A DNA stretch of 64,000 nt, taken from contig NIVC01003031.1 in assembly GCA_002269645.1 (NCBI GenBank), forward strand, positions 60,347 to 124,346, in the 5' to 3' direction. The position numbers and the translations under genes are program-made. This document shows, piece by piece, positions 3,101 through 54,774 of this stretch. Below the pieces are notes generated by a model. That model saw only the letters and a program-made list of their open reading frames with translations, was not told where the DNA came from and did no database searches. How positions within the stretch are numbered: the stretch's first letter is position 1; every line of letters starts with the position of its first letter. This DNA is from Macrostomum lignano. Lineage: Eukaryota.

Positions 3101-3268
3101 TTTTCCTATAGTCCTATATTCCTATATTTTAAGGTAAAAATTGTCAAATCAATAATTTCCCTACATAGGGCTATGATATATCATGCCACATTCAATTATT
3201 AGGAGACTAGGGCAAGTAATAATCTCATGTAAGACCTACTCATGCTTAATGTTAGTGTCAGACAAGTC

Positions 3269-3563
3269 AGTAGTAGGGAAATGTACGCTTCTAGCCCCAG
3301 ACCCCCCTTTTTAAAAACAGCAATTTGGAAGGCTAGAGGGGGGACACGGGGGGAAACCAAAAAACACACTACAACACACTACAACACACTAAAACACCCC
3401 CAAAAACCCCAAAAACCCAAAATACTCCTAATAAACATAAAATATCAAAAACACTATTAACACACCCAATCACATCCAATCACACCCCCGTGTACCCCCT
3501 CTAAGCCTTCCAAACACCCATTTTTAATAGGCCTGATCTAGAAGCGTACATTTCCCTACTACT
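3269..3563. repeat. Left terminal palindrome: 26-bp perfect arms (3269-3294/3538-3563), a second imperfect arm pair, and a G-free A/C-rich loop
   Basis: agtagtagggaaatgtacgcttctag vs ctagaagcgtacatttccctactact; inner arms ~3310-3352 vs ~3484-3527; no G on the + strand from ~3354 to 3489. Confidence 0.9.
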
Positions 3564-3614
3564 ACACACAAACACTCTAGTAACCCGTTGCCCGCGCCGA
3601 AGGCGCGAAGGGTC
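3546..3614 (+). repeat. Polinton TIR segment (left), inverted partner of 21281-21349
   Basis: 69-bp inverted match with 7 mismatches by manual alignment; contains the hairpin GCGCC-GAA-GGCGC. Confidence 0.9.
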
Positions 3615-3983
3615 TGAAATGTTCGCGAACTATTGTTCCATTATAGAGAGAAAGGCAGAAACACAAATAGCGCCGATTTGTATAATTATACAGAAAAGCG
3701 CCAACCATAAAAGAAAAGCGCCATTCAAAAGAAAAGCTCCATTCTACCCCCTTCTATTGTGCCTCTAGTTCGTCTCTTTTTTCTGTTACTAAAAATAGTC
3801 TTTTTCATTCCATTCATGTGGGTTTGCGCAGCCATATATGACACCACTTACAAAGTTATAAATGAGATTTGTATGAAGCCTCATACAACTTTTTGCCAGC
3901 TCAATTTTGCAAAAAAAGTTACACGCAGGGTTACTCATATTGCGCTATAATTTCTCTTTTTCTGTTACTAAAAATAGACAAAA

Positions 3984-4385
3984 ATGACACACGTTACCCA
4001 ACTATCCAATTTGAATGAATTGCAAGTAGGAGACCCAATTGAATACCGAGGTGAGGGGCTTTTTGATGTGATAGGTTCAGCAGCAAATTTGGTTAAAGAT
4101 AATATGGGACTGATAGGACAAGCGGGCTCGGCAGCAGGTTCTATAACAAATGCGGTAAAGGGTGGAATAGAAGCGGCTAGGGCAGCGGAGGAACTTAAGA
4201 AATTGAGAGAATTTAACGACACCCTCTCACAAATAAAAGCAATAAAAGATTTAAAATTAGCACAAGAAGCCACACAAACTACTGAAACACCCACTAAAAG
4301 CAACCCAATAAGTAATAAAGATATCCAAGATTTTAATAAAGTATTAACTAACATTAAAGGCGGAAAAGGATTAAAGAAGTTTTAG
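3984..4385 (+). CDS. Polinton hypothetical protein, probable virion core/membrane-active precursor with GxG-hydrophobic motifs
   Basis: 133-aa intact ORF with RGEG-LF and KGGKG-LK motifs and an amphipathic Gly/Ala-rich segment; preceded by TAAAAATAGACAAAAATG. Confidence 0.65.
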   Translation: MTHVTQLSNLNELQVGDPIEYRGEGLFDVIGSAANLVKDNMGLIGQAGSAAGSITNAVKGGIEAARAAEELKKLREFNDTLSQIKAIKDLKLAQEATQTTETPTKSNPISNKDIQDFNKVLTNIKGGKGLKKF

Positions 4386-4395
4386 TAATATAAAA

Positions 4396-5417
4396 ATGGA
4401 CACAGTTAATGACAAACGCCTTTATTTTATAGGAGAAGTAGTCGACACTTTAAACTTGGATGATAATAAACACAGTCGCTCAATGTTAAAAAGATTAGAT
4501 CGTTTAGGTAAAAAATTAGATTATAATATTGATACTTTTAAACTTGCTGCAAAATATGCACAAGAAGGAAGACCACTTTCATTTAAGAATAATAATAAAA
4601 ATTATAGGCTAACGGAACCTGACGTGAAATTTTTATTGGAGACTCACACCAAAAAGGATGGTGGCCTGTTACCTATTGATGATTACCTATTGGTAGAATA
4701 GGCTATTCTACCAATTCTTTTAGGACTCGGGGCAGCTGGAGCAACCGGTTTAGCAGCCAAAAGAATTCACGATAATCGAAAACAGCTAGGAGAATTAAAA
4801 GCAAAACAAGGGGGTATATTGCCGCTTGCAACTTTGCTTCCAATAATTTTTGCAGGAATCGGAGCAGCTGGTGGAGTAGCAGGTGGAGCGGCTGGAATTG
4901 CAAAAGCAGTAAACGACAAAAAAGCCGCGGATGAAAAAGCTAAACGAGAGGCTGAATTCCAAAGACAGCAAATAACACAGGATGCTCAATTTAAACAAAA
5001 ACTTATTGATACCATTAATAGCAGCTCGGCAACAGCAGAACAAAAAAAAGAAATGCAGAAGCTAGGTTAGCAGCTGGAAAGGGTTTAATATTAAAAGGAA
5101 CAACTCACGGCGATGGCTTAATGCTACAAGGAACAACACATGGAAGCGGAGTTGTAGCGGATAAATTACATGAGTTTGGTCAAACCTTAGAAAAAACGGG
5201 TGAAAAAGCTAAAGGATTTTTTGATAATATTGGAGCCAATTTTAGGCCAGCAGTTCAAAAGATTTTTAATAAATTAGGAAAAGATTTTAACATAATTGAA
5301 AAACACGACGGAAGCGGTTTATATCTTGAAATGAGACCAAAAGCTGGATCAGGCATCTTCTTAAATGCAAATGTCTCAGGCAGCGGATTAATTTTACCAA
5401 AAGCGGAACTCGAGTAG
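4396..5417 (+). pseudogene. Adenovirus pX-like core precursor (about 340 aa), disrupted
   Basis: The three annotated ORFs join into one: in-frame TAG at 4699-4701 and a 1-nt frameshift near 5066. Contains KQGG-ILPLATLLPIIFAGIGAAGGVAGGAAGIA, resembling adenovirus pX (GG-xLPxLIPIIAAAIGA), and repeated GxG-L motifs. Confidence 0.7.
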
Positions 5418-5447
5418 GCAAACATTGTATAAATTTTATTCTATAAA

Positions 5448-8400
5448 ATGGAAGCTATTTTAGCCCAAATCGACAACCCAGAACTTAGAGCTCAATTAAT
5501 AGCTCAAATAGAAGCACAACGAATGGCCGATAGGGCGGAAATAGAAGCTAGAGTCAGAGCTGAAAATGAGATACGTTTAGAAAGACAATTAGATAATATA
5601 AACAACCCACAACAACCAACAGAAATTGGAGCTGAAGTAATAAATATAGATATCGAAATAAATACTGATTATAAAGAATATTTTAAACAAATGAAACCAA
5701 AATTAAAGACCATCCTAGATAGATATACTAAAAGATCAAATAACAAACGACAGCCAATTAAGTATAAAATAGAAATTGAAACAGAATTTAAAAAACCAAA
5801 TATGATTAATGCAAATTCAGAAATGGAGGTAATAAATAACTGTTCACAAGAATCATATAAGACACTTCTATCAATGGGAAATTACAACAATCAATTTGAT
5901 CAAATAGAAGCAGAGTTTGATGAATGGATAGATAAGATGACAGAAAACGGATCAGGGTTTGTATTTGTTTCTTGTAATTTTGCCACAGTAAAGATTGTCC
6001 CCATAGAAATTCTTAGAGGACGATCACACATGAATCTTTTCTTTAAATCACCAATGATTATAAATCCAGACAATAAAGATAATAAGTGTTTATTATAGTG
6101 TTTACTAATTCATAAATATCATAAAGAAGTAAAATCACATGTTAACAAAATATATAATTATAGAAAATATGAATATGAAATAATAATGAAAAACATATCA
6201 TACCCAGTAGCCATTGATGATATATATAAGATTGAAAAAATGAATGGATTAAATATTAATGTGTTTACAATGGAAAAGCCAGAAGAAATTCCAAGTGATC
6301 GGACGGAGTCCGCGACCCATCAGGTCGATAAAGATTGGTATAAAAAAGCTGTTATTTAGTAAAGCCAGCAACAGATATAACAGCACCAGATCAGATTGAC
6401 CTTTTGTACCTACAGCGTGGAAATGAAACACATTATATATACATAAAAGATATTAGTTCATTTTTAAGAGAAAATGGAAATCGAATGCCATTATGTAAAA
6501 ACTGTTTCACATTTAAAAGGGATGAAACAACTCTTAAAAATCATCAAAGATTTTGTTTAGATCATAAATTTACTAATGTTGTAATGCCAGATGAAAATGA
6601 AAAAATATTAAAGTTCCAACAGCATTATATGTCAATTAAAAAACCAATAGTAATATATGCTGATTTTGAATCAACCAACGTTCCACTCGAGTCCCCCAAA
6701 CAGCAGGACTGCACAAAAAAATTGGCGCAGCAGTTTCCGAATAGTTATTGTATATATGTTCATTCTGTAGCAGATCATATTTTTAAATCGAAGATAATTA
6801 CTTATCATGGAAGAGACTCTGCAAAACACATGGCGGAAACATTAGTAAAAATATTTGAACTTATACAATGTCAATATGATAAATTATCAAAAGATATTAT
6901 TATGACAGATAAGGATAGATACAATTATAAAAATGCAACAAATTGTTTTATGTGCAAAATGTATTTAAGTAAGAATAATAAGATACGAGAGCATTGTCAT
7001 CTAACAGGAATTTATCGTGGGGCAGCATGTAGATCATGTAACGCAAAAGAAGGAAAAGGATGTAAGGAAATACCAGTATTTTTTCATAATGGATCTGGCT
7101 ATGATTTTCATTTCCTTGTTCGAGAGTTACTAAATTTAGGTAAGGATGAATATGAAGTAAATATATTACCCAAAACATCAGAAAATTACATATCAATAAC
7201 ATATGGTAAAAAATATTCCCATCTGGTTTTTCTAGATTCCTTGAGATTCTTATCAACCTCTTTAGCGAATGTTGTATCATCACTAGTTCCAAACCCATGG
7301 GATTTAGAAACAATAAATAAAAACTTTCCAAATCTAATTAATAAACTCAAAAAAGAAAAACTATCCGAAGAAGAACTAAAACTATTAACTCGCAAGGGCA
7401 TTTATCCATATGAATATGTAACATCTGAAAAGGTATTTAATGATACTCAACTACCCCCAATAGAAAAGTTTTATTCAATATTATCACAATCAAACATTTC
7501 CGAATCGGATTATGAACATGCACAAAAAGTATGGAATTACTTTAATTGTAAAACATTTAAAGATTATCATAACCTATATCTTAAAGCAGACGTTCTCCTA
7601 TTAGCTGATGCTTTTGAAAACTTTAGAAATCATACATATGAGAATTTTAAAATTGATCCAGCCTATTGTTTCAGTGCACCCGGATTAACATGGGCATGCG
7701 GATTGAAACATACAGATGTAAAAATTGATTTACTAACTGATCATGATATGTTGTTAATGATTGAGCGTGGAATTCGTGGTGGATTCTCAGGGGTATTAGG
7801 AGATAGATATACTAAAGTAAATAATAAGTATCTACCTAATTATAATAAAAAAGAAAAATCATCATATGTATTATATCTAGATGCAAACAATTTATATGGA
7901 GGCTGTATGAAACAAAAATTACCAATTGCCGATTTCCAATGGGAAGACGACCCATATTACTATAAAAACATTCCCGAAGGAAGGGGATGCATAGTGGAAG
8001 TAGATTTAAAATATACTCGGCAAGCAAAAGCACAAACATATAAATATCCTTTAGCTCCAGAGCATTGTTCAGTTAATGAAGATGATTTATCACAAACACA
8101 AAAAGATTACCTAAAAGCAGATAATTCAAAACATCTATCAACAAAAAAGCTAATTCTAAATTTATTCGATAAGAAAAACTATGTAGTGCATTATAAGCTT
8201 CTACAATTTTATGAAAAGCAAGGACTAAAAGTAACCAAAGTACATCGAACAATATCATTTATAGAAGAAGATTGGTTAGCTAAATATATTGACTTCAATT
8301 CAAATCAGAGACAGATGGCAAAAACAAATTTTGAGAAAGATTATTGGAAATTAATGAACAATGCATTTTATGGAAAAACGGTGGAAAATATTAGAGATAA

Positions 8401-9414
8401 AACCCAATTCCATTTAGAAAAGGATATTGAAAAAGCAAAGAAATATTTTACCAAACCTAACTTTAAAGACTTTATAAAATTTGATGATGAATTTATGGGA
8501 ATACATATGCGCAATAAAACAACAAAATTTCTGAAACCAATCTTTATTGGAATGGTTGTTTTAGATTATGCAAAGCTAGTAATGTATGAATATTATTATG
8601 ATGTTATAAATAAAACATGGCCAGATAACTATCCAATATATGCAGACACCGACAGTTTGGTATTTAAGGTTGAAACTGAAGATCGGGCACAGCCCGCGAA
8701 CCTAAGGTTCGATGTCTATAAAGATATGGAAACAATTCAAGATACATTGGATACGTCCGATTATCCGGATAACCATCCTCTAAAATCAGATAAAAATAAG
8801 AAAGTTGTTCTTAAAATGAAAGATGAATTAAATAGCAAAATCATAACCGAGTTTATAGCAATAAGATCAAAATGTTATGCATTTAAGGTTTTAGGACAGG
8901 AGGGAGAGGTAAAAAAAATAAAAGGGGTATCAAGGGCAGCAGTTAAAAAGATAACTTTTGATGATTATAAAAATGTACTATTAGATTACCTTAATACAAT
9001 TGAAAAATATCATACTCCACAATATCGGTTAAATTCAGATAATCATCAGATGTTTGTTATTGAGACTGATAAAAAACATTAAGCCCATTTGATGATAAAA
9101 GGTATTTAGATAATAAAATTAAAACATATCCATATGGTTTAAAAGATGAGATAAAAAACATGATAAAAGATAAAAAACAAAAAGAAGATATAATAAGCAA
9201 ATATATAGAATACAAAGAGGTAATAAATAATTACTATTACAATTGTGATTGTGAATCCGAATGTGAATGTGAATATAATACATTTCTAGAATATGAAAAA
9301 GACATAGATAATTATTATGCAACATTTCCAAAAGAATTTAAAAAATTAAAAAAGGAACAAGTCTTGGATAACTGGAAGAGATTAACGGAAAAACTAATAA
9401 TGGTTAAAAACTAA
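5448..9414 (+). pseudogene. Protein-primed family B DNA polymerase (vOTU-like N-terminal region, exonuclease with endonuclease VII-like insert, polymerase), disrupted
   Basis: Exo motifs YADFES and FHNGSGYDFH; polymerase motifs YLDANNLYG, KLMNNAFYGK, YADTDS; CxxC..EHCHLTGxYRGAACxxCN insert. Lesions: TAG at 6096-6098 in NKDNKCLL*C (Trp expected), frameshift in the A-run 6342-6347, frameshift in the A-run 9071-9076, after which KTLSPFDDKRYL continues in frame into the 9160-9414 ORF. Confidence 0.95.
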
Positions 9415-9750
9415 AGCATGTAATTCCTTAAGTAGAATATCCAATTCCAATTCATATTTTATAGAACACCAATTATCTTCGCAATCGTCAGGATAACTTA
9501 AACACTCTTTTACTTTTTTTCGAAGTTTTTTTATTCGTCTAACAAGCCAATCGATTTTGTTTTCAATAACAGTTTCAGCATAAGCAATTGTGGCTTTTAT
9601 AAAACTTTTTCTTTTTTCTAATTCATATCGAATCGGAAACATTTCTTCGCCATAATCACTATATTTCTGCTCAATAATTATATCTAATTTTTTATTAATA
9701 TTATTTAATTCTTTATTATATGCACACAGACGGGTTTTTATAGGCGCCAT
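9394..9750 (-). CDS. Polinton hypothetical protein (118 aa, helical/coiled)
   Basis: Intact ORF with TAAGAAAATG start context, tightly packed between neighbours; no recognisable family. Confidence 0.6.
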   Translation of the reverse strand: MAPIKTRLCAYNKELNNINKKLDIIIEQKYSDYGEEMFPIRYELEKRKSFIKATIAYAETVIENKIDWLVRRIKKLRKKVKECLSYPDDCEDNWCSIKYELELDILLKELHALVFNHY

Positions 9751-9771
9751 TTTCTTATAAAAAAATTTAAC

Positions 9772-10107
9772 TTATTCAGACTCGTCCTCCCAAACAGCAG
9801 CCAATTTTACAGTCCTGTCAACCTTTTTGTTTTTTGCTTGTCTTTCTTTAAACTGCAAACCATCCATTGGTGAGTATTTCATAATAAAAGTTTTAGGTTT
9901 ATTTATAATAATCGTTGGAAAATTTTTAACGTCATCGCCACTTAAGCACAGAACAACTCCCCCATTTAATTGTAAAAATATCGATTGAATTCCAATAAAT
10001 TTAACCTGTCGCAAACATATTATATCATACTCCTTTGGCTCCAGAGAATTGGTGGTTAGAAAGTTAATTGTATTAGAATCGGTTTTGAACCAATTTTCTT
10101 TTTCCAT
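9772..10107 (-). CDS. Polinton hypothetical protein (111 aa)
   Basis: Intact ORF with TAAAAATG start; no recognisable family. Confidence 0.6.
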   Translation of the reverse strand: MEKENWFKTDSNTINFLTTNSLEPKEYDIICLRQVKFIGIQSIFLQLNGGVVLCLSGDDVKNFPTIIINKPKTFIMKYSPMDGLQFKERQAKNKKVDRTVKLAAVWEDESE

Positions 10108-10133
10108 TTTTAATCTAAAAAAATAATAAAAAA

Positions 10134-10677
10134 ATGAAAGACAGATACGAATGTAAAAAATGTAATGTTACTATGCAAAGAGGTCAAACAGCAAATGGAG
10201 ATATATATCATATGTGTTATTCGTGCGCTAAGATATATCAATTTGAAAAAACAAAAAAAGATTGAAAACTTATATTACTATTTCAAAAACACAATTATAA
10301 AAAATTTATCATGTGACATTTCACATCCATCCCTTCAAAAGCCAGACGGTACACAAATTAATACCATCCCCGGAAATAATGTTTATTTAAATAATAACTT
10401 TTTTCATTTAAATAAAGGAAAAGGATTAAGTTCGAAAGACTCCGAGAGGATTTTAACTCTGGTTGGATATTATTTCAATTTTCTTATGAGAGAGAACACA
10501 AAACATATAAGGTTGGGTAACATACCAAGTGAAATGTTATTGAAGAAGTCATTGGAATTTTTATGTATTGATAAAAAATTTGAACCGCGAATCAAAAGGC
10601 AATTACCATTGTGGGAAGAATATATAATATATGCATTAAAAAAGCTACACCGGATAAAGTCCGATTGTGCTACCTGA
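10134..10677 (+). pseudogene. Hypothetical protein with N-terminal CxxC...CxxC zinc ribbon, frameshifted
   Basis: MKDRYECKKC...HMCYSCAK from ATG 10134 shifts at an A-run near 10253-10259 into the annotated 10165-10677 frame. Confidence 0.55.
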
Positions 10678-11305
10678 CCTCGGGCTTTGTGCCCCAGTTT
10701 CTATAGTTTCTATAGGTGGAGGGTTCGGTTTTTCACCCCGAAAGCTCGCACTCATAGGCCGGTTGAGTCTTAATTCGTTTAATTCTGTATCGGTAAAAGC
10801 TTCAATATCTAAAATTCGATTTCTATCTTTTAAATACTTATCATATAACTCAACCGCGGTTGTTAACTCATGTATTGTAATCTCACCATCATCTAATATT
10901 TTTGCACATATAAGTATAACTGATTTTTATATTGTTTAGCAACATCTCTTAGTGATTTATATTTATTCTTTCTTTTTTAAGATATAATTTAATTACCAAA
11001 AGTATTGATAAGTTTCTTATTAATTCAAAACCTGATATTGAACCAATTGAAATACCCAAAAATAATTGAGATAAATTAAGAGTTGGAATGGATTGTAAAA
11101 TACCTAAAACGATTACACACAACATCGATAAACTTCCAAAACCAATATTGAAAAAATCCATATTCCTGATATGGTTTGAAAGCCTTCTTACTTTTTTAGT
11201 ATATAAATCATAATCATAATTTATTCGATCGACATTACTTAACATGCGTCCTTTACGTTGGTTAAATAAATCTCTTTCCTTTCTGTCCGCTTCAGACACC
11301 GACAT
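10645..11305 (-). pseudogene. Predicted two-transmembrane protein, frameshifted
   Basis: ORF 10949-11305 has two hydrophobic segments. An alternative frame near 10960 continues KSLRDVAKQY...KILDDGEITIHEL to a stop at 10645-10647. Confidence 0.5.
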
Positions 11306-11615
11306 TTTCGTCTATTTTTAATAGCACCAAAATGAATTCCCCACGCTCCTTAGGAATCTGTCCGGCGCTCAATAAGTATTGGATTGGAGTTATTCTTTCT
11401 TTTTTCTCCCGTTTAAAGCCAACCTTCCAAAACTCCTGTAATATAATATGGTTTTTTAATAATTTAATTAACTCCTGAAGTTTCTTATTGTCTTGAACAT
11501 TCACTCCGCTAAATAAAATTTTGGTATGAGATCTAAAAGTTTTTATATTTGATTCTTGTTTAAGAATAACAATAGTATTGCTTTGTCGCATTGATGGAGT
11601 TCTACTAAAAGCCAT
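11292..11615 (-). CDS. Polinton hypothetical protein (107 aa)
   Basis: Intact ORF with TATAAAATG start, overlapping the next gene by 14 nt. Confidence 0.55.
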   Translation of the reverse strand: MAFSRTPSMRQSNTIVILKQESNIKTFRSHTKILFSGVNVQDNKKLQELIKLLKNHIILQEFWKVGFKREKKERITPIQYLLSAGQIPKERGEFILVLLKIDENVGV

Positions 11616-11641
11616 TTTATATAGAAATATTTTAGACTAAC

Positions 11642-13703
11642 TTATATTGCTACAGGTGGCCTTTCCAAATAAGGAGTAGATGGAAAATTATAACCAAATG
11701 ATGTACTACCACAAACTATTGCTCCACGAATAAAATGTGCCGCATCTGCTCCTCCGGTTTGAGCACCAAGGTCCAAACCCCATAAGAGTTTCGGATTTAT
11801 CTAGATCTCCCCAAGTTCCACTATCATACGTAAAAACATTTTGCCCAATTAGTGTCAAAGAATCTCCTGCAACATTGTATGAGCTTAACTGATACCAAAC
11901 TCTTTGATTAAGAATATTAATTTCAAAAAGATGCCAATCGCTATTATCAATATTGGCATAGGTTACAGTTTGGTCGGCGTCATTTAGAACGTCATTGCGG
12001 ACGGTTGCTCCGTCAGCTTTTTTATTACTCTTTTTTTAAAGCAAGCCGAATCTGTCATGCCATTCACTAGCAAACACTATTAAGCCGGCGTCGGTTGTTA
12101 AACCAGATCCATTTTCCGTTGTTGGTCGTTGGTGGCAGTAAGCATAAAACCAAACGGCGTCTGCACCAGCTCCACCACTAGCAGCATTAGCAACTCGGAA
12201 ATAGAAGGAGGCAGAAACATTACGGAAATGGGTGAAATTAAATTGTAAAGCTCCATTGAGTCCAGAGCCTTCGTCAGTAATTCTTGCACCGTTTTGATAA
12301 TCAATATAAATCGCATTTCCAACCATAGACCCAGTTGGAAAAATATCACCAGCAGCTGTTGGGTTTTGATAGCCATTCCAATTACATATTACTGGCTCAT
12401 ATAAAGCGGCATCAATTGCCGGAATACCATCCAATTTAATTTTATCATTAAAAGACATTCTACCGTCCGCCGTTTGTGTTACAACCGTATCAACATAACC
12501 TTTAGTCACAACAGAAGTATTATCGTTTATAGTTGAGATATTAGTAATTGTATTACCACCCATGTCAATAGACTGATTTACTGCTCCTAAATTCAAATCA
12601 ATAACGGTAAAGGTCTGTCTGTAAATCTGAAATGTTGATAAGCCTGGATTGGTTGAACCCGATGTTGATGTAAGACAAAACAATCTGAAATATGAATATT
12701 CTTTATCAAAATTTTGTGTGACATTAAATGTTTGGGTTGAATTATTTAACTCCACCGAACTCGTTGCCGGAATCAAAACATCATAACTTGTATTGTCATT
12801 ACTTCCTTCAAATCGCCATGAAGCAGGGTGCTCGGTTGAGGGTGATGGTCTACCACGCAAATCAATTTTATAACACATTATCGCGGATGGACATTGGACT
12901 TGAATCCAGTAATCTGTTTGTGTTGCATTAGTTGCCCAATCCGTTGCGTCATCCCCATCAAAAGCTTTCCAACTTGCAAAGCTGGTTGTATTAAATGCCG
13001 TGCTTGCTGTAATCGCAAAACCACTACCACTCCAAGCAGCCATTGTTGGTACATGTCCAGGTTCAACAGTTTGGAACCTATCTTGTTTTGGGGCTCCGCC
13101 CCCAACTAAATTATCAACCTCTGTTTTGGTATAAGAATCGGTTATATTACATTTCAAATTTAATGAATTATCTATTTCAGTTTTGTTATAAGAATCCGCG
13201 ATATTCCGTTTCAAATTTAATGAGTTATCTATTTCAGTTTTGTTATAAGAATCGGTTATATCTCTTTTTAAATTTAAGGAGTTATCTATTTCAGTTTTGT
13301 TATAAGAATCGGTTATGTCTCTTTTTAAATTTAATGAATTATCTATTTCCGTTTTTGTATATGAATCCGCGACATTCCGTTTTAAATTAAGTTCGGAATC
13401 AACTTCGGCTTGACTATAAGAATCTAATATATTACGTTTTAAATTTAATGAATTATCTATTTCCGTCTTGCTATATGAATCCGCAGTATTGCGTTTTAAA
13501 TTTAATGAATTATCAATTTGAGTTTTGGTATAGGAATCTGCAACATTCCGTTTTAAATTTAATTTAGTATAAACTTCACTTTTTTTATAACCTTCGTCTT
13601 CATTTATATATCTGTTATCTGCAAAGGAAACATTAATGCCAGTTGATTCTCCACCGCCAGTTCTTGAAGTTCCATTCCATGAGGGTGTTCCACTAAATAA
13701 CAT
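11642..13703 (-). pseudogene. Putative virion fibre/receptor-binding protein: 19-aa shaft repeats, F5/8-type-C (discoidin)-like domain, legume-lectin-like domain
   Basis: About 7 repeats of KR(N/D)IxDSYxKTEIDNSLNL; KAFDGDxxTxW...WxFEGSND motif; IDMGGNTITN...TKGYVD; SASFYF..GADAVWF and GAQTGG..H motifs. In-frame TAA at 12036-12038 and a frameshift near 11770 extend the ORF to 11642. Confidence 0.75.
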
Positions 13704-13726
13704 TTTTAGAGTCTATTTTTACCATA

Positions 13727-14161
13727 TTAAAATGAATCCAATATGTTTTTAAAATCCTCTGGGGTATTGTTCGAGTTGTTTATTTTATATAAAAAATACA
13801 ACGCCGCCTGTCCGCAATAACTTTTATCAAAGGTTTGAAACTGTTCGTGATAATCTCCACATAATCGATTTTTAGTATGGTTAAATTTGTCTTTTATTTC
13901 CTGCAATGGAGGAAGGGCATATGAATCAAAAAAAGAAACAAGTTTGGGTTTTGAATAAACTGCTGACCAATGTACACCATTTTCTTTTGTCGTTTCAATA
14001 TTTACAATAAAGGATCCATATTTTGGTAAGTCTTTTATCTCATCGCGCATAACACATCTGAATGGTTTTATTTTTAATTGTCTCGCCCAGTTTGTTAATT
14101 CAATATTACTTGTTGTGTCCATTCCATATCTTTGTTTGAACTGGTTCCAGCTCATAGTCAT
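13727..14161 (-). CDS. Adenain-like cysteine maturation protease
   Basis: GVHW, FFDSY and Q-x5-CG catalytic motifs in Polinton/adenovirus protease order; intact. Confidence 0.93.
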   Translation of the reverse strand: MTMSWNQFKQRYGMDTTSNIELTNWARQLKIKPFRCVMRDEIKDLPKYGSFIVNIETTKENGVHWSAVYSKPKLVSFFDSYALPPLQEIKDKFNHTKNRLCGDYHEQFQTFDKSYCGQAALYFLYKINNSNNTPEDFKNILDSF

Positions 14162-14340
14162 TTTATGCTCCTGAAAAACTCTTTGTTTTTGTTAGTTTCT
14201 TATCTGTAGGTTTTAATAGTTCCTGTCTGGTTTTAACAGCTTGTAAATGTTTCAATTTTGTTAGTTCGATTTCATAATTATCTTTTGCTTTTTGAACTTT
14301 TACCATTTGTTTTTTTATATTATTACCCATTTTTAAGATT

Positions 14341-15126
14341 CTAAACCTGTTTTATTCTTAAAATTACTGTTATTGCTTGTCCACCAAAACTAATAAGTCG
14401 ATCCGAATCATTTACAACTCTTATATAAATTGATTGTAAATTATATTGATTTAAAGGATAATAAATTGGGGTTTGGGGTGCAACTATCATTTTATCTCCA
14501 ATTGGCACGGCTAGAAATGGAATTGAATAAATAATTCCGCGCTGAACTAAAAATCCATTATCATCTGTTATATAACCACCATTTGAAATATCGGTTGTAA
14601 TATTAATTGTGTTGACTCCGCCTTCAATGTTTCCCACGGTATCGCCCGTGGTTGATGCGGTAACGATTCGGGAGTTAAATCCCAGTATGGTTCTAAGTGA
14701 ATTTGCAACTGTAAAATCGACCTGATATCCGGCTGCTAACGTAAGTGTGAATCTGCCTGATGGTAAATCAACTCATATAACAATCGCGTCTGCTACCCAA
14801 TCACCATTATCTGTTAACTCAGCTTGTATTACAGTATTCAAATCAGTATAGTTATATGCGCCCGGTGTTATAGTAATGGTTGTCCAATTTGCTCCTGAAT
14901 CTTTAGAATATCTAAATTGATTATTTGTTGCATTAATCAATTGAGGCATGTTAAAAACTGAAAACATTATTAAACCAATTTCATAACTTAATGTCTGATC
15001 AAGAGTTAGTGGGTTACGTAATTGAATCCTTTGCTTGCTGCTTGTCATTACAAATTGTAAAGTCGTACTAAATCTTGCGTTGGTTCTATCAACCACTTGT
15101 TTAAGAACATCTAAATTAGAGGCCAT
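14341..15126 (-). pseudogene. Minor capsid protein (penton, single jelly-roll)
   Basis: ORFs 14773-15126 and 14341-14637 share a frame and are linked by open sequence after one TGA (14773-14775). ITPGAYN and C-terminal YYPL..SIYIRVVN..RLISFGG..ITVILRIK patterns are typical of Polinton pentons. Confidence 0.85.
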
Positions 15127-15141
15127 TTTTATAGTGGGAAT

Positions 15142-15908
15142 TTATTCGTCCTCTTCCTCATCCTCCTGTATCAAATTTTGTAAAATTCTATGTTTCCTTT
15201 CTAACCTAGGATTGATATATATGTGTTTGTATTGGCTATCATCCCAAATTTTTTTACACGTACTTTTGAATGGTTTTGTATCTAAACCGGGGTTAAATCT
15301 CGCATGTATATTTTGTAAATCATAGTTATCTAGATCAAACATTACGCAACAGCTAGCATTCTTTTTTATAATTGAATCTAATTCTCTAAAGGATTGAGTA
15401 AGATAAAATGCACCAATTCCATCTCCTCTACCACTAACAAAAATTTCTTTTTGCAATTCTTGATCGCCATCATTAATACAATCGTCAAATACAATTAATG
15501 TTTTATCGTCTTTTGGAATTTGATCATAGTGTAATCGTGTTGATATTTTAAACGTTGGGGAGTTGTTGTCGACGTTTTCTGGATTCTGCGCAGTTTCTCT
15601 ACATAAACCCTCAATGTCAGAAAGTTTGAATTTTGGTTCATCGTCGTCCTCATATTGCTCATATGCTCTTAACATTCTAAACATGATATCTTTTTTTAAT
15701 TTATTTTTTAATCCATGTTTAAGAAATTCATAATATTTTATTCTTGGTTTGTTTGTATATATTATTAAATTATTATAATCTAACATTCCGTTGGTTGTTA
15801 ATTTAACATTGTTAATGTTAATGTTGTTTTTCCTTTACCTGATCCTCCAATCACTAAACAAAGAAAAGGGTCATTTGGAAATATTTTATTATGTTTTGGC
15901 TTTACCAT
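15142..15908 (-). pseudogene. A32/FtsK-like genome packaging ATPase, frameshifted
   Basis: Upstream frame MVKPKHNKIFPNDPFLCLVIGGSGKGKT (Walker A) shifts near 15800 into the annotated ORF with LIVFDDC (Walker B), GRGDGI and LTQSF. Confidence 0.92.
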
Positions 15909-15927
15909 TTTTAAGGATATAATTTAA

Positions 15928-17409
15928 CTAATTTTTTCCTATAGGGGCTTCCTGAACAACGGTGCCGTCGGCTTTAGCAATCGCCATATACTCCTCTAGA
16001 ATCAATGCGTGGGCGTCCACTGCCTGATTTCCGGTTTTATTAATCTCCAATATATAATTCAAACCAACATTTGATGTATTTTCTTTCTGTGCGGTTAGAT
16101 CAAAAACAACCACGGGGTGAATGTTTAGAAACTCTGTGGGAGTATATTGAGGAATGGCGTAGGCTTCGTTTTTGACGTAATCCTGATAATATTTTATAAA
16201 ATCATTAACATCATTATTTCCAACATTTAGATTAAGGGAGTCTTTAACAGGATAATATTGTTGATCAACCTGCAGTCGGATGTTCTGAAGATTAAATGCG
16301 TTAATTGCCGAAAGAGCGTTGTCACTTGCGGTGGCTGCTTGAGCTGCTACATCACCAGATTGAAGCCAATATAAATCACCATTGGCTCTTTTGCTACTTC
16401 TGTTTGTTATTTTAAACCAAACAAATACATACCTCACCCGACAATTTGTTGGTAAGATTTGCCAAAGGAATGAATCCTGATTATTATTAATGGTTCACAT
16501 AAAGTGGCGGCGATTTAAATAAAATATATCCTGGTCTTACATTATCTGATCATTAATATGTTTTAAAAGCGGAGCAGTTACCTCGATAGTTGGCACAACT
16601 AATTGAATCGAAACAATTCGAACTGCAATATCGGTTGAGGTTGAACTTCCAAAAAGTATCCTGGGCTGATATCCACCAGATATTTGCAGCTGTACCCCAA
16701 ATTTTAATCCCTTCCATACCCGATTTGGTGAGATAAACCCAAATAGCGGAAAGATTGAAAAGTCTTGCTCATAAGCGGTTGCGGTAGTTAAAACCGCGAC
16801 TGGGAATTTATTCTGACGATCTATAAAGCCGGTGTTCATATTTTTAGTGTTGGCTAGATCCGTTACAACCGGAACTATATTATTATTTAAATAATTAATA
16901 AGAGCTGCGGTGTCTGCGCCAGCTGCTGGTGTTATTTGGGGAAAAGTCCATGCTCTACCATCTCCCTTATCAGGCATCCATCCAACGCTGTCACCAACCT
17001 GTTTTGATAAATATGTATAATTTAAATGTTTCAAAACTCCATTAATCTCTGCTGGGTTTGTAGACGTCTCAACCGCGGCTCCGTTAATGGATAGTTGTGC
17101 TTGGGAAAAACATTTATAAAGCCAATCATTTTCTATAATAATACCAGCGCGGTCGGCGATATCGGGGGCTGTAAGGGCTGTTCCATCGTTTCTGGTATAC
17201 AACCACCTAACGCGGAAAAACGCATGTTTCATATCCAATATGCTGCTGGTTGCGCCAACGTCAAAATTTACAGCTCCCGTTGTAAAGTTATTTGAATTAT
17301 CGCTTGTTGGTTGGGTATAATTTAAATCTCTTGATCTGACCTCATTAATATACTGTCGGTGTTTTTTGAAATGAAATTTATCACTCCAAATGGTTTTTGT
17401 CTCGGCCAT
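15928..17409 (-). pseudogene. Major capsid protein (double jelly-roll)
   Basis: The two annotated ORFs are in the same frame, separated by TAA (16537-16539) and TGA (16495-16497); about 493 codons, beta-rich, ending ..PVVVFDLT.. as in Polinton MCPs; adjacent to ATPase and penton. Confidence 0.88.
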
Positions 17410-17425
17410 TTTTATAGGTTAAAAA

Positions 17426-18151
17426 ATGAGTCAATTTATGGACGTTGATGGAGAGTTGGCGATTTATAAAGAAAAGCAAAGATATTCCGATTTTGTTAGA
17501 GATTTACAAAAAAAACTGGGAATTCAGTTAGCTGGCGAAAAATTTGCTGCTCCTTTTGTTAATCCTATTGTTGGGAAATTAGGAGAAATAGAAAAGAAAT
17601 AAATATTTGATAACATCAAAAGTGGTTTATTTAGTAAAACCGATTTTATGAATTTATTGGGGAAAACAAATAAAAAAATTGATGATTTGTTTGATTCTGT
17701 AAAAAAGAATGAAGTTAGTTTGGAGGAATTTAAAAAAGAAATTTCTAAACCAGCTAATGTTTTAGAGGAAGAGATTGACACCGAGGGTAGTAAAAGTTTT
17801 TTCGATAGTTATTTAAAAGATGGTGTTCCTAAATCAATACTCGTTGAAAATGAGACCGAGAGTAATATTACAATTGGTGGTAAAAATTTTGATATAAAAA
17901 AATTAAAAGATGAATTAGGAAAAGATGCATTCTATATTATAACACACCCAACTGAGAATCCGTCTAAAGTAGATCGATATACTAAAGAAGATATTAGGAA
18001 AGCTAGAGAGTTTATTGAAAATAAATTGGATACTAGAGCAAAAACTACCAAAATATATAATGAATTAAAAAGAGCTGTTGGAGATGGTTTAAAAACTCCG
18101 CGAAAACTTGTTTTAGCTGCTGCCAAAGCTGCGGGGCATACTGGAGTTTAA
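17426..18151 (+). pseudogene. Polinton hypothetical protein with an internal stop
   Basis: ATG 17426 is in frame with ORF 17648-18151; TAA at 17600-17602. Confidence 0.55.
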
Positions 18152-18174
18152 TTGTTAAATTTGTTTTTTATAAA

Positions 18175-18744
18175 ATGGAAACTAATAAGATTTGTACTAA
18201 GTGTGGTGAAGAGAAACCAATGACTAAAGAATTTTTTATTTGGAGAAATGATTCAAAAAAATTTAGAAATGATTGTCGATTATGTCATAATATTAGTTGT
18301 AGTTTATGGATAAAAAACAATAAAGATAAATGGAATAAATATCGTAGAAACAAATACCAAAATGATGATAATTACAAACTTATTGGATTAATTAGAAATA
18401 GAATAAAAAATCAATTAACCATTTTTAATGATCGGGATCATATTTTCTATCTTGATTGCACTAAAGAATTCTTTATTGATTGGATAAACTTCACAAAACA
18501 TTATTATGTCCCAAAAGATTATACTGGTGTGTTACATGTTGATCATTTTATTCCCGCTTCTTCATATGATTATAGAAATGAAGAAAAAATTAAAAAGTCT
18601 GAGCAATGGAGAAATAAAAGGTACTTATCTGCAGCAGATAATATTTCAAAAAAGGTTAAACAACCAACTATTGAAGAATTAGCAAAACAATTAGTGCTAA
18701 GTTGTATTTTTATGGTTATTAAAAATGAACCAACTTGTGTTTGA
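18175..18744 (+). CDS. HNH-family endonuclease with N-terminal CxxC/CxxC zinc finger (NCLDV-like)
   Basis: CTKC...CRLC, then LHVDHFIPASSYD...WRNKRYLSAADNISK, matching the DHxIP...N...L...N HNH pattern. Confidence 0.75.
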   Translation: METNKICTKCGEEKPMTKEFFIWRNDSKKFRNDCRLCHNISCSLWIKNNKDKWNKYRRNKYQNDDNYKLIGLIRNRIKNQLTIFNDRDHIFYLDCTKEFFIDWINFTKHYYVPKDYTGVLHVDHFIPASSYDYRNEEKIKKSEQWRNKRYLSAADNISKKVKQPTIEELAKQLVLSCIFMVIKNEPTCV

Positions 18745-19996
18745 AGGTGGATTATTGGATGTTCAGAAAGGATTAACAAGCTTACCGCCTATCTTTACTA
18801 CTGGGCGGTATACGAATGAATTACATATTCCAGGTTATTCCTATGCAGGTCCCGGGACTCGGTTGGATTTAAGGTTAAATCCTGATGACACTCCAAAATC
18901 AGATTCGATTCCCATTAACGGTATTGATTGGTTAGCATATTATCATGACTTAGCATACAGAGATGCTGATAAGAACTCTCCTGAGGAAGCATTGAGATTA
19001 AAGCATGAAGCCGATAGAAAAATGATTGAAGGATTAGATAATTTACAGGGGTTGTCGGTAAGCCAAAGATTAACTCGGTGGATGGTTAAAAAGATTTTGC
19101 AGTCTAAAGTTAAATTTGGTTTAGGAATTAATTACAACCAGCATGGAAATAATTGTGTAGAATGTTTGTTATTAAGTGGTGGTGGGTTAAGTTATGATGA
19201 GGCAAAGATTCTTCACAAAGAATACCGAAAACCGAAATTTTATCGAAAGATCATGAACTTTAAAAAGAATGAAATTTGGTATGCTGATTTAATGGCAATG
19301 CCGTCCGATTGGGGATATAAATATATTTTAACTGTATTAGATGGTTTTACTCGATATGCGTGGGCTGTTCCTTTGAAATTCAAAAAAGGAGAGGAGGTTG
19401 CTTCTGCTTTTAGAAGTATTGGAGAAAAAAGTGAACGTTTATGTGTTGATGAAGGAAAGGAATTTTACAATCCACATATGTATAGATTATATCATTTTGA
19501 AAAAGGAAAAGAAAGGATAAAGGGCGCAAATGGTGAGTATATTAATAAAATTTATTCTATTTATGGCGAAAGCAAAAACGCACTGATTGAAAGATTTAAT
19601 CGAACTTTAGGTAAGAAATTATGGTTTCAGTTTAGTCTTAATGGTAACCAAAAGTGGGTAAAAATATTACCAGACGTAGTGAAAGATTATAATAATTCAT
19701 TTCATTCGGCTATAAATATGACTCCACAACACGCTTATAACAATCCTGAAAAAGTTAAAGTTACTTTTGGAGAATTCGAAAAAAAGAAAACTAAACCTTT
19801 TAAAGTTGGTGATTCTGTTTATGTCTATAAATGGAAAGATAAGTTTGAAAAGGGAAGAAAAGGATATTGGAAAATAAGTGAGAAATTTACTGTTAGTAAA
19901 GTTTTAAATACAAATCCTACAACCTATATCATTGCTGATAAAGATGGTGAAGAAATATTGGGTTCGTTTTATGAGAACCAATTAATGTTAGTTTAA
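18725..19996 (+). CDS. Parvovirus-type phospholipase A2 fused to retroviral-like (rve) integrase
   Basis: N-terminal PGYSYAGPG...D.LAYYHDLAY (Ca-binding loop plus catalytic HD). C-terminal WYADL / VDEGKEF / IERFNRTL (D,D,E). One uninterrupted 423-aa frame. Confidence 0.92.
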   Translation: MNQLVFEGGLLDVQKGLTSLPPIFTTGRYTNELHIPGYSYAGPGTRLDLRLNPDDTPKSDSIPINGIDWLAYYHDLAYRDADKNSPEEALRLKHEADRKMIEGLDNLQGLSVSQRLTRWMVKKILQSKVKFGLGINYNQHGNNCVECLLLSGGGLSYDEAKILHKEYRKPKFYRKIMNFKKNEIWYADLMAMPSDWGYKYILTVLDGFTRYAWAVPLKFKKGEEVASAFRSIGEKSERLCVDEGKEFYNPHMYRLYHFEKGKERIKGANGEYINKIYSIYGESKNALIERFNRTLGKKLWFQFSLNGNQKWVKILPDVVKDYNNSFHSAINMTPQHAYNNPEKVKVTFGEFEKKKTKPFKVGDSVYVYKWKDKFEKGRKGYWKISEKFTVSKVLNTNPTTYIIADKDGEEILGSFYENQLMLV

Positions 19997-20404
19997 TTTT
20001 TTATCTTCTGTTAATAAAGTTTTTGAAGCTAATTTTTTTTTAAATATTCATATCATTAATTGCAAGTTTATTTTTTAATTCTTCATCTGTTAACATATTT
20101 TTTAATGGTTTATAATCTGACTATTTGAAAGTTTCAGTTATTTCTTCAAGATTGTTATGAATAAAAAAGATATAAAAATCTAGATTATGTCTTTGTTCAT
20201 TATTATTCAAATATTCACTAATATGAACTTCTATGGCTTTGTTATGTTTTTTGGGAATTCGTTTTTTAGATCTTTAATTTCATCTGTGGTTAATGGGTAT
20301 ATTTTTACTCCTCGAATTTCTACGTATTTTATTAAGCCATTTATTATCATATTTTTTATATCTACAACCTTATCAAAGAGATAATTGGGTAGATCTTGTT
20401 TATT

Positions 20405-20734
20405 TTATGGGGGTAATTGATCTGTGATAATAGTTTTTATTGGAGTAGAATATTCTTTATATTTAAGATTAAGATCAATCTTAAATCTCGTTGGATAATG
20501 ATTTGATTGTGTAGGTAGTTGATAATTATTCAAATATGTAACCAAAGCAATAACATCATCTTTAAGATGACGACCAAAATTTACAATAGTGTTTTTAATT
20601 TTATATAGTAGTTGCTTAATTTCAGATGGTTTTAATGGATATATTTTTTCTCCTTCTAATAGTACAATTTTTAATAAACCATCATTTATCTTCTGTTTTA
20701 GATCTTTTAACCTTTGATCAATTTCTGATTCCAT
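20405..20734 (-). CDS. Hypothetical protein, member of a local paralogue family
   Basis: 109-aa ORF with TAAAAATG start; LKQKINDGLLKIV..KIYPL motif shared with neighbours. Confidence 0.6.
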   Translation of the reverse strand: MESEIDQRLKDLKQKINDGLLKIVLLEGEKIYPLKPSEIKQLLYKIKNTIVNFGRHLKDDVIALVTYLNNYQLPTQSNHYPTRFKIDLNLKYKEYSTPIKTIITDQLPP

Positions 20735-20946
20735 TTTTATGGATAAATTTTAAATAATACTTACTTGAGGCAACAAGGTAATAAATTTTTTTATAACAAA
20801 CAAAAGCAATATTATTATTATTATAGTTACTAATATCATTATCAACAATTGTTCAACTGTAACAAGACTTAAATTTTCTTTAAGTTCATTAATTGGCACG
20901 TTTCCTATGTAAGAATAATTTATGTTCATTTTTTAAGTTATATTTT

Positions 20947-21261
20947 TCACATAAAAATTTCGTTTTCATTATCCGATTCACTAGTTTCATAAGAACTATT
21001 TGTTGATTCAGAATCTGTTGACCTAACCTCCCAATCCTCGGAATTTAAATAATCTCCAAGTTGAAATATTAACTCACCCTCTTGTTCTAAATCATACAGC
21101 CCATCCAACTCTAACGGATAAAGTTTTAGTTCGCTTCCGTCGTCATATTTTAAATAAACTTCATCAATTATTCCATTCAATATGTGCTGTTTTATTATCT
21201 CTGCATTTTTAGTAACAGTCTCAAAAGTATCGCTTACTGAAAAGTTGTAAACTCGGTTCAT
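20947..21261 (-). CDS. Hypothetical acidic protein, member of the same paralogue family
   Basis: 104-aa ORF with IKQHILNGIIDEV..KLYPL; the start lies within TTTTCTGTTACTAAAAATG. Confidence 0.6.
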   Translation of the reverse strand: MNRVYNFSVSDTFETVTKNAEIIKQHILNGIIDEVYLKYDDGSELKLYPLELDGLYDLEQEGELIFQLGDYLNSEDWEVRSTDSESTNSSYETSESDNENEIFM

Positions 21262-21280
21262 TTTTAGTAACAGAAAAAAA

Positions 21281-21349
21281 GACCCTTCGCGCCTGCGGCG
21301 TGGGCGACGGGTTATAAGTGTGTTTGTGTGTAGTAATAGGGAAATGTAC
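21281..21349 (-). repeat. Polinton TIR segment (right); homology stops abruptly at 21349
   Basis: gacccttcgcgcctgcggcg...gtagtaatagggaaatgtac is the reverse complement of 3546-3614. Confidence 0.9.
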
Positions 21350-22041
21350 TAGGGACTAGTCAGCTGTTGTAATCCGTTGAAGGTGCTGACGGCGTCCGGG
21401 TGATAACTGAATGCTCTAGAGACTAGCTGAGGATGTCCAGCAGTTGAGGCTTGCCCACTCTGTCGAGGCTTGATCAGCGAAACTAGCTGAGAAATTTGAA
21501 CAGCGTGTCCATATACATGTAGACACCTGTTGCAACTTGTTGAAGGTCCAGAAGCTCCGCCTGGGTGAAGGCTAGTGACCAACAAAGTCAAGTAAATCTG
21601 ATGCAGACACAATGTAGTAGACGTGCCGACGAAATTTGGAGACTTGGCAGGCTGCACTGAGTCAGCAGTTATTGGCGCACAGGGTGTAATACACTGGCGC
21701 TTATGGGAAAATCCGACCATCTGCAGGCAGAATCATCGAATATCTCGAAGGTCCAGAGGGCTGGCGACGACTTGATTCTTGTTCGAGAAGGTGCGTAGCA
21801 AAAAGTAAGCCCGTGTTCTTGAATTTCGTGCGCCCGCGTTGCTCCGTGTCGGCGCATCAAAAAATGTCAGCTGGGGTGGGGGTTCCCTGTTCTACTGTTA
21901 ATAATAGAACAGTAATATTAATATATAGTAATAAAAGGAATATAGTAATACGATCGTAATCATCTTATTATCATTATTAATAGTAATAATTTCAATAATA
22001 GTCTTAATAATATTGGAATAATAAAACATTTGGTATTTTTA

Positions 22042-37990: not shown

Positions 37991-38084
37991 ATAAGTAGCT
38001 AGAGCGACAATTTCCTTAGCTTTATAGTGGCTCCTTTAAATTGGCATGGCGCTTTATACCTTTACATTTGGAATTGTATATCTT

Positions 38085-40795: not shown

Positions 40796-40852
40796 TTGAT
40801 GTTTAGCAGTTTTGTTGTGTTTTTAAGGTGTTTTAATAAAAAAAATATTTTT

Positions 40853-40919
40853 GCACTACTGAGATTCGAACCCAGGTCGCTACATTAGCATTCCAGTCTG
40901 TTCGCATCAGGGCTATCTC
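40853..40919 (-). ncRNA. tRNA-like Pol III segment (second copy)
   Basis: Nearly identical to 47318-47384; B box GGTTCGAATC followed by a T8 run. Confidence 0.55.
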
Positions 40920-47265: not shown

Positions 47266-47317
47266 TTATGTGTAGCAGTTTCATGTTTTCAAGGTGTTTT
47301 AATAAAAAAATTATTTT

Positions 47318-54764: not shown

Positions 54765-54774
54765 TAATTTCTTG

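What the first reader, a model, noticed from the sequence alone, without database searches (positions are those of the whole stretch)
8682..8713. Double-hairpin insert no. 2, next to catalytic motif C: a candidate frame-preserving mobile mini-element
AT-[CGGGC-ACA-GCCCG][CGAACC-TAA-GGTTCG]-AT. Relative to copy 1 the loops differ and the stems show compensatory changes (G-C vs A-T), so structure rather than sequence is conserved. Removing it turns YADTDSLVFKVETE-DRAQPANLRF-DVYKDM into ...VETEDVYKDM, the usual Polinton spacing as I recall it. This resembles the double-hairpin elements of chytrid mitochondria and Rickettsia coding palindromes. I am not aware of such elements being described in Polintons. 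The element's own HNH nuclease or integrase is a speculative mobiliser. Weaker GC hairpins occur near 10676-10696 and 13088-13100.
Basis: partly seen in the sequence, partly recalled or inferred. Interest (0 to 1): 0.7.

Follow-up and report, generated by a model that had tools for sequence, protein, structure and literature searches.

The report
Jumping 30-base hairpin inside Polinton polymerase
A 30-base DNA double hairpin sits in a predicted surface loop beside the active site of a Polinton virus polymerase, is present in some copies of the virus and absent from others at more than 30 positions, and is likely a gene-less selfish element, predicted to be copied during Polinton DNA replication.

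Summary
Confirmed. 8682-8713 is AT-[13-nt hairpin][15-nt hairpin]-AT inside the polymerase gene of an integrated Polinton. The ten added residues fall in a low-confidence loop after the motif C strand. The element belongs to a family of roughly 400 copies (436 pattern hits, 37 control) at more than 30 positions, in both orientations and all codon phases, found only in Polinton DNA in the loci checked. Stems covary, the two hairpins reassort, and loops are mostly of the DNA mini-hairpin type. The flanking AT is not a simple target duplication. Best mechanism (about 0.5): template switching by the Polinton polymerase; rival: Endo VII-type nuclease cutting. Integrase is unlikely; the two weaker hairpins are not inserts. 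It works like mitochondrial double-hairpin elements and yeast GC clusters; six literature searches showed none in Polintons. This scan already reported the family from other pieces of this genome (four notes); this report adds motif C detail, junction classes and partial conversions.

The parts
8682..8713 (+). Double-hairpin element, copy 2: AT + 13-nt hairpin (5-bp stem, 3-nt loop) + 15-nt hairpin (6-bp stem, 3-nt loop) + AT; net insert 30 nt, ten codons in the polymerase frame
   Evidence: filled and empty alleles
6298..6329 (+). Double-hairpin element, copy 1, in the N-terminal part of the polymerase gene; also present/absent among copies
8645..8656 (+). Catalytic motif C (DTDS) of the protein-primed family B polymerase; the insert follows the strand behind it
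   Evidence: (D266, T267, D268 invariant)
5448..9414 (+). pPolB gene of the Polinton; in this copy the frame is broken near 6098, 6345 and 9082
   Evidence: fold match to phi29 polymerase Z 20.5, rmsd 4.1, 306 aligned
6926..7084 (+). Endonuclease VII-like zinc domain inside pPolB (candidate structure-specific nuclease, activity untested)
   Evidence: Pfam PF02945, E 6.8e-07
18175..18744 (+). Free-standing HNH/Endo VII-like nuclease gene in a slot that holds an Eco47II-like nuclease in other copies
   Evidence: phrog_1035 E 4.3e-09
18725..19996 (+). PLA2-like domain plus rve integrase; sister copies carry the element at six positions of this gene
3593..3607 (+). Subterminal hairpin of the left Polinton end with the geometry of the 15-nt hairpin (CG ends, C-GAA-G loop); possible source of the module (inference)
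21288..21302 (-). Matching subterminal hairpin of the right Polinton end (one mismatch, GCA loop)
10651..10663 (-). Single 13-nt hairpin resembling the first module, standing where sister copies have native sequence of the same length: likely a partial conversion
3269..21349 (.). Host Polinton (about 18 kb, terminal inverted repeats, pPolB, protease, penton, ATPase, double jelly-roll capsid, fibre-like gene, integrase)
   Evidence: protease, penton, ATPase and fibre labels rest on recalled motifs and gene order, not on a family hit

Best explanation
The 30-base double hairpin is present or absent at this site among Polinton copies and is likely a gene-less selfish DNA element that is predicted to spread when the Polinton's own strand-displacing polymerase jumps onto a folded hairpin pair on single-stranded viral DNA, copies it and returns. 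Shown: fixed geometry, presence/absence at more than 30 positions, both orientations, all codon phases, confinement to Polinton DNA in the loci checked, covarying stems, module exchange, tandem arrays of unlike members, retention in guessed-RNA contigs. Inferred: (1) protein-primed replication displaces single strands on which the C-(G/A)NA-G mini-hairpins fold; (2) a nascent end finishing in (A)T pairs with the AT at the foot of a folded element, copies 28 nt plus AT and re-anneals at its old place, which gives 30 nt and looks like an AT duplication only at AT targets; (3) switches at the central CGCG swap modules, and switches within a hairpin equalise arms and flip loops; (4) recombination between Polinton copies then spreads filled alleles; (5) selection keeps inserts in tolerant loops, gene ends and spacers. 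At motif C most filled copies likely descend from one old insertion, with at least one more event.
For: 55 filled and 22 empty of 77 copies, 42 exactly +30, 2 exactly +60, 11 one to three bases short. 436 genome hits against 37 control; 205 against 2. 71 of 75 double-hairpin loci lie by Polinton-matching DNA, the other 4 are a different terminal motif; 47 of 47 in a second set. 92 distinct 28-mers, 52 stem combinations, up to four pair types at one stem position. Loops of type RNA or its reverse complement in 86 of 92 and 72 of 92 against 35% background; such loops are far more stable in DNA than RNA (PMC13037366, passages). At 10 sites whose nearest empty allele is not only AT, 7 keep the target pair at one end and AT (once AC) at the other, 2 have AT at both, 1 duplicates GT. 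Native look-alike sequence near 10650-10720 has been partly overwritten with element sequence in several copies, which a precise cut-and-paste would not do. Template switching is known to equalise arms and invert spacers (PMC8604942, abstract). All four filled/empty combinations of sites 6299 and 8683 occur (11, 4, 7, 3 of 25). No recombinase, transposase or HUH gene among accessory ORFs.
Against: No intermediate or new insertion was observed. Template switching alone does not obviously explain why the copied tract stops so often at exactly 30 nt. The 9402 site (target GA) lacks the one-base match the model wants, and two sites end with AT on both sides. Nearest sampled empty alleles need not be the true pre-insertion state. 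Endo VII-type nuclease domains are on hand in every full copy and could give the same junctions. The pairing fractions are inflated because the scan required pairing. Loci came from the first 30 hits of each search and overlap, so confinement is sampled, not proved.
Confidence: 0.5

Rival explanations
1. Same selfish element, but moved by a nuclease: an Endo VII/HNH-type domain of the Polinton cuts the double cruciform out (or nicks a target) with a two-base stagger, and the piece is ligated or copied into a break, leaving mixed ends after replication.
For: Endo VII domain inside pPolB and a free nuclease gene in a variable slot; the Endo VII motif serves junction resolvases and homing endonucleases (PMC6083498, passages); the element has two-fold symmetric ends and centre; the two mirror-image junction classes fit a two-base crossover core; new copies often land at the AT beside an older copy.
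Against: Element load does not follow the nuclease type: copies with the HNH-type gene carry 0-15, copies with the Eco47II-like gene 0-7. No conserved recognition sequence beyond CG ends. Partial overwriting of native sequence and odd module pairs (11+15, 12+15, 13+13, 15+15) point to copying, not excision.
Confidence: 0.27
2. The hairpins are a functional cis signal of the Polinton (protein docking, pausing, protection of single strands from nucleases or single-strand binding proteins) that the virus gains and tolerates, not a pure parasite.
For: The terminal repeats carry a hairpin of the same geometry; mini-hairpins act at phage origins and N4 promoters, resist nucleases and bind SSB poorly (PMC13037366, passages); the filled motif C allele is common and appears in guessed-RNA contigs of four studies.
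Against: Full-length copies with no element at all exist (C283, C2379, C926); positions differ from copy to copy; many sites are private to one or two copies.
Confidence: 0.1
3. RNA-mediated retroposition by a host reverse transcriptase, as proposed for Allomyces DHEs and yeast GC42.
For: Reverse transcriptases are in the genome (window 58063-59634); proposed for DHEs lacking duplications (PMC2800124, passages) and for GC42 (PMC4478555, passages).
Against: No poly(A) tail or long duplication; no copy outside Polinton DNA in the loci checked; loops are DNA-type triloops.
Confidence: 0.06
4. A MITE moved by the Polinton integrase or by a host DDE transposase with AT targets.
For: ATCG...CGAT ends; AT/AT flanks in 88 of 135 contexts; viral MITEs with dinucleotide duplications exist (PMC10664404, passages).
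Against: Only 2-4 nt of terminal repeat; non-AT targets are mostly not duplicated; retroviral-type integrases give longer duplications (recalled); a host transposase would also hit host DNA.
Confidence: 0.04
5. Assembly or sequencing artefact, or a conserved peptide motif.
For: Eleven filled copies are 1-3 bases short, some likely read errors.
Against: Independent short-read contigs from four DNA-type runs of three studies hold the filled allele and its variants; the insert is read in all six frames at different sites; homologues lack the peptide.
Confidence: 0.01

Closest known systems
Double-hairpin elements (DHEs) of chytrid (Allomyces) and fission-yeast mitochondria (PMC10085805 passages; PMC2800124 passages; Paquin et al. 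2000 seen only as a cited title)
   Same: Short, gene-less, GC-rich pair of adjacent hairpins in an AT-rich genome; sporadic presence; no clear target duplication; mobiliser unknown
   Different: Here in a nuclear-integrated DNA virus, mostly inside protein genes (the fission-yeast DHEs are intergenic or in rRNA genes); fixed 13+15 geometry with CG ends and DNA-type triloops; no sequence kinship tested
Yeast mitochondrial GC clusters, GC42 (PMC4478555, passages)
   Same: Presence/absence at many homologous sites, dinucleotide flank, changes concentrated in loops, merger and shuffling of units, spread by recombination through flanks
   Different: 30 nt, AT core that is partly element-borne, primary sequence of stems free to covary, viral host
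Rickettsia palindromic elements (recalled; the search returned no paper on them)
   Same: Palindromic insert that keeps the frame and adds a peptide in a surface loop
   Different: About five times shorter than recalled RPEs; no preferred reading frame or peptide; eukaryotic virus
MITE-like palindromic repeats of pithoviruses and pandoraviruses (PMC10664404, passages)
   Same: Gene-less palindromic repeats that colonise a DNA virus, form mixed arrays sharing a dinucleotide, mobiliser unclear, resolvase suggested
   Different: Those are about 140 nt with 47-54 bp terminal repeats and intergenic; this one is 30 nt, has two separate hairpins and enters genes
DNA mini-hairpins d(GCGNAGC) (PMC13037366, passages; PMC3201870, abstract in listing)
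   Same: C-G closed GNA triloops on short GC stems
   Different: A structural motif, not a mobile element; many loops here are ANA, and the copy at 8682 has ACA and TAA loops

Membership tests
Mitochondrial DHE / GC-cluster type mobile palindromes | Two adjacent GC-rich hairpins, no coding function | tested here: met
   all six frames used
Mitochondrial DHE / GC-cluster type mobile palindromes | Presence/absence at homologous sites | tested here: met
Mitochondrial DHE / GC-cluster type mobile palindromes | Residence in mitochondrial DNA | tested here: not met
   lies in Polinton copies on nuclear-size contigs
Mitochondrial DHE / GC-cluster type mobile palindromes | Sequence kinship with Allomyces or Schizosaccharomyces DHE consensus | not tested
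   no DHE sequences were fetched; no Rfam match in 3200-21400
MITE (non-autonomous DDE transposon) | Terminal inverted repeats long enough for a transposase | tested here: not met
   only CG or ATCG at the ends
MITE (non-autonomous DDE transposon) | Duplication of the target bases | tested here: not met
   1 of 10 informative non-AT sites shows a duplication; the caveat on nearest empty alleles applies
Rickettsia-type coding palindromic elements | In-frame insertion in a surface loop | tested here: met
Rickettsia-type coding palindromic elements | About 150-nt unit with a recurring peptide (recalled) | tested here: not met
   30 nt; peptides differ by frame and strand
HUH-mobilised hairpins (REP, Helitron, Replitron) | Cognate HUH nuclease gene linked to the repeats | tested here: inconclusive
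   none among accessory Polinton ORFs; the host genome was not searched for one
Spliced mini-intron | Removed from RNA | tested here: not met
   guessed-RNA contigs of four runs cross the site without a gap and no skipping joint is listed; RNA status is a guess
Polinton/Maverick (host element) | pPolB, rve integrase, double jelly-roll capsid, terminal inverted repeats | tested here: met

The most novel reading that the evidence does not exclude
This is the smallest known kind of viral parasite DNA: a 30-nt, sequence-free structural replicator defined only by two abutting DNA mini-hairpins and an AT core, born from the Polinton's own terminal hairpin, that hijacks the viral replication machinery, evolves by swapping hairpin modules, and has settled on 30 nt because that lets it invade the genes of a nearly all-coding genome, even next to the polymerase active site. 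It would give an enzyme-defined model for how mitochondrial DHEs and GC clusters move.
Probability: 0.4. Interest if true: 0.82.

Novelty: new variant of a known kind. Interest (0 to 1): 0.66.

Why it matters
How gene-less hairpin elements (DHEs, GC clusters, coding palindromes) move has been open for decades because the host systems have many candidate enzymes. Here the element is confined to an 18-kb virus with one polymerase and one or two nucleases, has dozens of filled/empty pairs in a single genome and can be made as a 30-mer, so the question becomes testable with purified enzymes and oligonucleotides. It also shows a route by which viral enzymes gain ten-residue loops, and the inserts map tolerant loops and mark recombination among Polinton copies.

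Tried and rejected
Search for the element outside this genome: viral contigs gave 2, 1 and 0 pattern matches and metagenome contigs 8; inspection showed GC-rich DNA with broken stems, one IMG/VR hit (L232) being a near-perfect single case that I treat as chance. A single-protein search of viral contigs found no relative; the alignment found 27 loci (327 kb) with no perfect GC-rich abutting double hairpin. Other animal genomes could not be scanned at DNA level, so range beyond this host is unknown. A second, distant Polinton family of this genome (pPolB about 50% identical) had the element only at the shared PLA2 site, in 3 of 26 stretches. No link between slot nuclease and element load. No HUH, recombinase or transposase among accessory ORFs. 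No Rfam match. No RNA holder was on record; the RNA label of runs is a guess, and no empty-allele joint was listed in either read call (59, 60), which is no evidence of absence. Diversity around the motif C site showed no clear co-conversion tract beyond the codon before the insert; I built no tree. The motif CGCTCGG... hits are terminal motifs of another repeat and were left out of all element counts. Literature searches that could have shown such an element in Polintons or DNA viruses listed none; I saw listings and abstracts only for most, read passages of PMC8502044 (no occurrence of 'hairpin') and PMC11161782, and opened no supplements. Repbase entries and subscription papers were not searchable.

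Full report
1. Observation. The window holds an integrated Polinton of about 18 kb (3269-21349) in a 764-Mb eukaryotic genome. At 8682-8713 the sequence is AT, CGGGC-ACA-GCCCG, CGAACC-TAA-GGTTCG, AT. As single-stranded DNA it folds into two abutting hairpins on both strands (z about -4, 0 of 200 shuffles). A second copy lies at 6298-6329. Abutting hairpins as such are not rare in AT-rich DNA, but the CG-ended form is: 2 seen, 0 of 500 simulations.

2. The motif C site is a true presence/absence polymorphism. A protein search of the genome scored 150 of 693 candidates and showed matches of 360 and of 330 nt at 93-97% identity. Of 77 copies that I fetched and that span the site (chosen by similarity rank, not at random), 55 are filled and 22 empty; 42 are exactly 30 nt longer, 2 carry two unlike units (+60), 11 are 1-3 bases short. 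Nearly all filled copies have Asp or Glu there, so most likely descend from one insertion; L304 is filled on the proline background with a different first hairpin, which points to a second event or a conversion. The first hairpin varies among filled copies (CGGGC, CGGAC, CGTGC arms) while the second stays, i.e. modules are exchanged. Contigs of four DNA-type runs from three studies hold the filled allele and these variants (they cover both junctions, with fewer than 31 bases on the right). Contigs of four runs guessed to be RNA cross the site without a gap, so the insert is likely translated, not spliced.

3. Effect on the protein. Of 97 aligned homologues, 94 have 25-26 residues where the window has 35; one (P0007) has an unrelated 11-residue insert in the same loop. 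The AlphaFold model (mean pLDDT 88.3) puts the insert in a coil between the strand after DTDS (269-277) and the next helix (288-294), with pLDDT under 50 at 280-285. The domain matches phi29 polymerase (Z 20.5, rmsd 4.1, 306 aligned). The window's own polymerase gene is broken elsewhere (near 6098, 6345, 9082), but filled copies with open frames over 1250 codons exist.

4. The family. A pattern holding only the AT flanks and four CG pairs gives 436 hits against 37 for the reversed control; module patterns give 192 against 4, 205 against 2 and 185 against 23. In the loci held there are 92 distinct 28-mers in 135 contexts and 52 stem combinations; inner stem positions use three or four different base pairs (the scan required pairing, so the paired fractions are inflated, the variety is not). 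By my count the element sits at more than 30 positions of this Polinton family, about 26 inside reading frames, on both strands and in all three phases, so the peptide is irrelevant. None was seen in the capsid or fibre-like genes (3478 of 18081 nt), and several cluster in one ATPase loop, at gene ends and in spacers. Variants with other module sizes (cores of 24, 26, 27, 29, 30 nt) were seen at spacers and gene ends (part of that output was cut), apart from one-base-short copies. Tandem arrays have a 30-nt period and unlike, sometimes inverted members, which fits serial insertion beside an older copy.

5. Confinement. In 89 overlapping loci from the first hits of three searches, 75 held a double hairpin; 71 lay beside Polinton-matching DNA and 4 were a different motif in the terminal repeats of another element. 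In 60 more loci, 47 held one; 46 mapped to the window's Polinton and the last lies in an alternative polymerase gene of a sister copy. A distant second Polinton family has it only at a shared PLA2 site (3 of 26 stretches). It was not found in 27 related viral loci or by pattern in viral and metagenome collections.

6. Clues to mechanism. (a) Junctions: AT/AT flanks are commonest (88 of 135), but at 10 sites whose nearest empty allele is not only AT, 7 keep the target pair at one end and AT (once AC) at the other, in both mirror forms, 2 have AT twice, and 1 duplicates GT. This is a two-base crossover or priming core, not a transposase duplication. (b) Loops: 86 of 92 first loops and 72 of 92 second loops are purine-N-A or its reverse complement, against 35% background, closed by C-G; the stable reading tends to be in the 5' hairpin of either strand. 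GNA mini-hairpins are much more stable in DNA than RNA, resist nucleases and bind SSB poorly (PMC13037366, passages). Loops flip at one site (GGA and TCC at 6299). (c) Near 10650-10720 native sequence that resembles the element has been partly overwritten with element sequence in several copies, and in the window at 10651-10663. (d) All four filled/empty combinations of sites 6299 and 8683 occur (11, 4, 7, 3 of 25), so copies recombine. (e) Every full copy has a nuclease in a variable slot, HNH/Endo VII-like or Eco47II-like, and pPolB has an Endo VII domain, but load does not follow nuclease type; no HUH, recombinase or transposase was found among accessory ORFs.

7. Best explanation. A selfish structural element copied by polymerase template switching on displaced single strands during Polinton replication, then spread by recombination and filtered by selection (about 0.5; that it is mobile in some way, about 0.9). 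Template switching is known to equalise arms and invert spacers (PMC8604942, abstract), which covers covariation, loop flips, module swaps and partial overwriting. Its weak point is the precise 30-nt length. The main rival is cutting by an Endo VII-type domain (0.27; PMC6083498, passages). My reading before the look-up leaned to the nuclease route; earlier AI notes favour the polymerase, and the partial conversions found afterwards moved me to it. The subterminal hairpins of the Polinton (3593-3607, 21288-21302) have the 15-nt geometry and may be the source (inference).

8. Comparison and novelty. It works like DHEs of chytrid and fission-yeast mitochondria (PMC10085805 and PMC2800124, passages) and yeast GC42 (PMC4478555, passages), but is not a member: it is not mitochondrial and kinship was not tested. 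It fails the MITE tests. Viral palindromic repeats are known from pithoviruses but are longer and intergenic (PMC10664404, passages). Searches listed no such element in Polintons; Repbase and subscription papers were not searchable and no supplements were opened. This scan has reported the same family from other pieces of this genome (e1-8608547, e1-9034476, e1-9844966, e1-8607364), which is not independent evidence; one note calls the host a flatworm (e1-9898789, untested here). Verdict: real, new variant of a known kind, interest 0.66.

Noticed in passing
window 18175-18744; L201:6175-6687; L191, L203, L274, L192: An exchangeable nuclease slot before the PLA2-integrase gene: HNH/Endo VII-like in most copies (47-74% identical while neighbours are 75-98%), Eco47II/EcoO109I-like restriction nuclease in others. 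Looks like homing or inter-virus conflict.
   Followed up: partly
L212:770-3769, L273, L215, L355: Some copies of this family carry a different polymerase (about 1000 aa, phrog_1907 hit) in place of the window's pPolB; it also carries the double hairpin.
   Followed up: partly
L286 (G000:C93:602500-611800), L233, L251-L253: A family of 3-9 kb elements with long terminal inverted repeats beginning ACTACT, inserted in satellite DNA, with a subterminal hairpin like that of the Polinton ends and no Polinton gene found.
   Followed up: partly
L119, L121, L123, L125, L127, L213, L277 near window 10660: An AT-richer 29-30-nt double hairpin with CA/TG in place of CG ends, present in some copies only: likely an older generation of the element.
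   Followed up: partly
window 53687-62739: An endonuclease plus reverse transcriptase region (56455-59634) framed by long inverted repeats, 520 nt perfectly complementary, with internal 21-nt repeats.
   Followed up: no
window 37900-48000: A satellite of 23-nt period, over 350 units.
   Followed up: no
window 3269-3565: A 300-nt inverted-repeat segment at the left Polinton end that duplicates the terminal motif in reverse; the true left terminus is unclear.
   Followed up: no
L211, L218, L222, L223: Non-autonomous or decayed Polinton derivatives and a variable left-end module with a paralogous ORF pair also carry the element, once next to the terminal hairpins.
   Followed up: partly
window 13109-13590: The fibre-like gene holds 57-nt (19-residue) tandem repeats followed by an F5/8 type C domain.
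   Followed up: no
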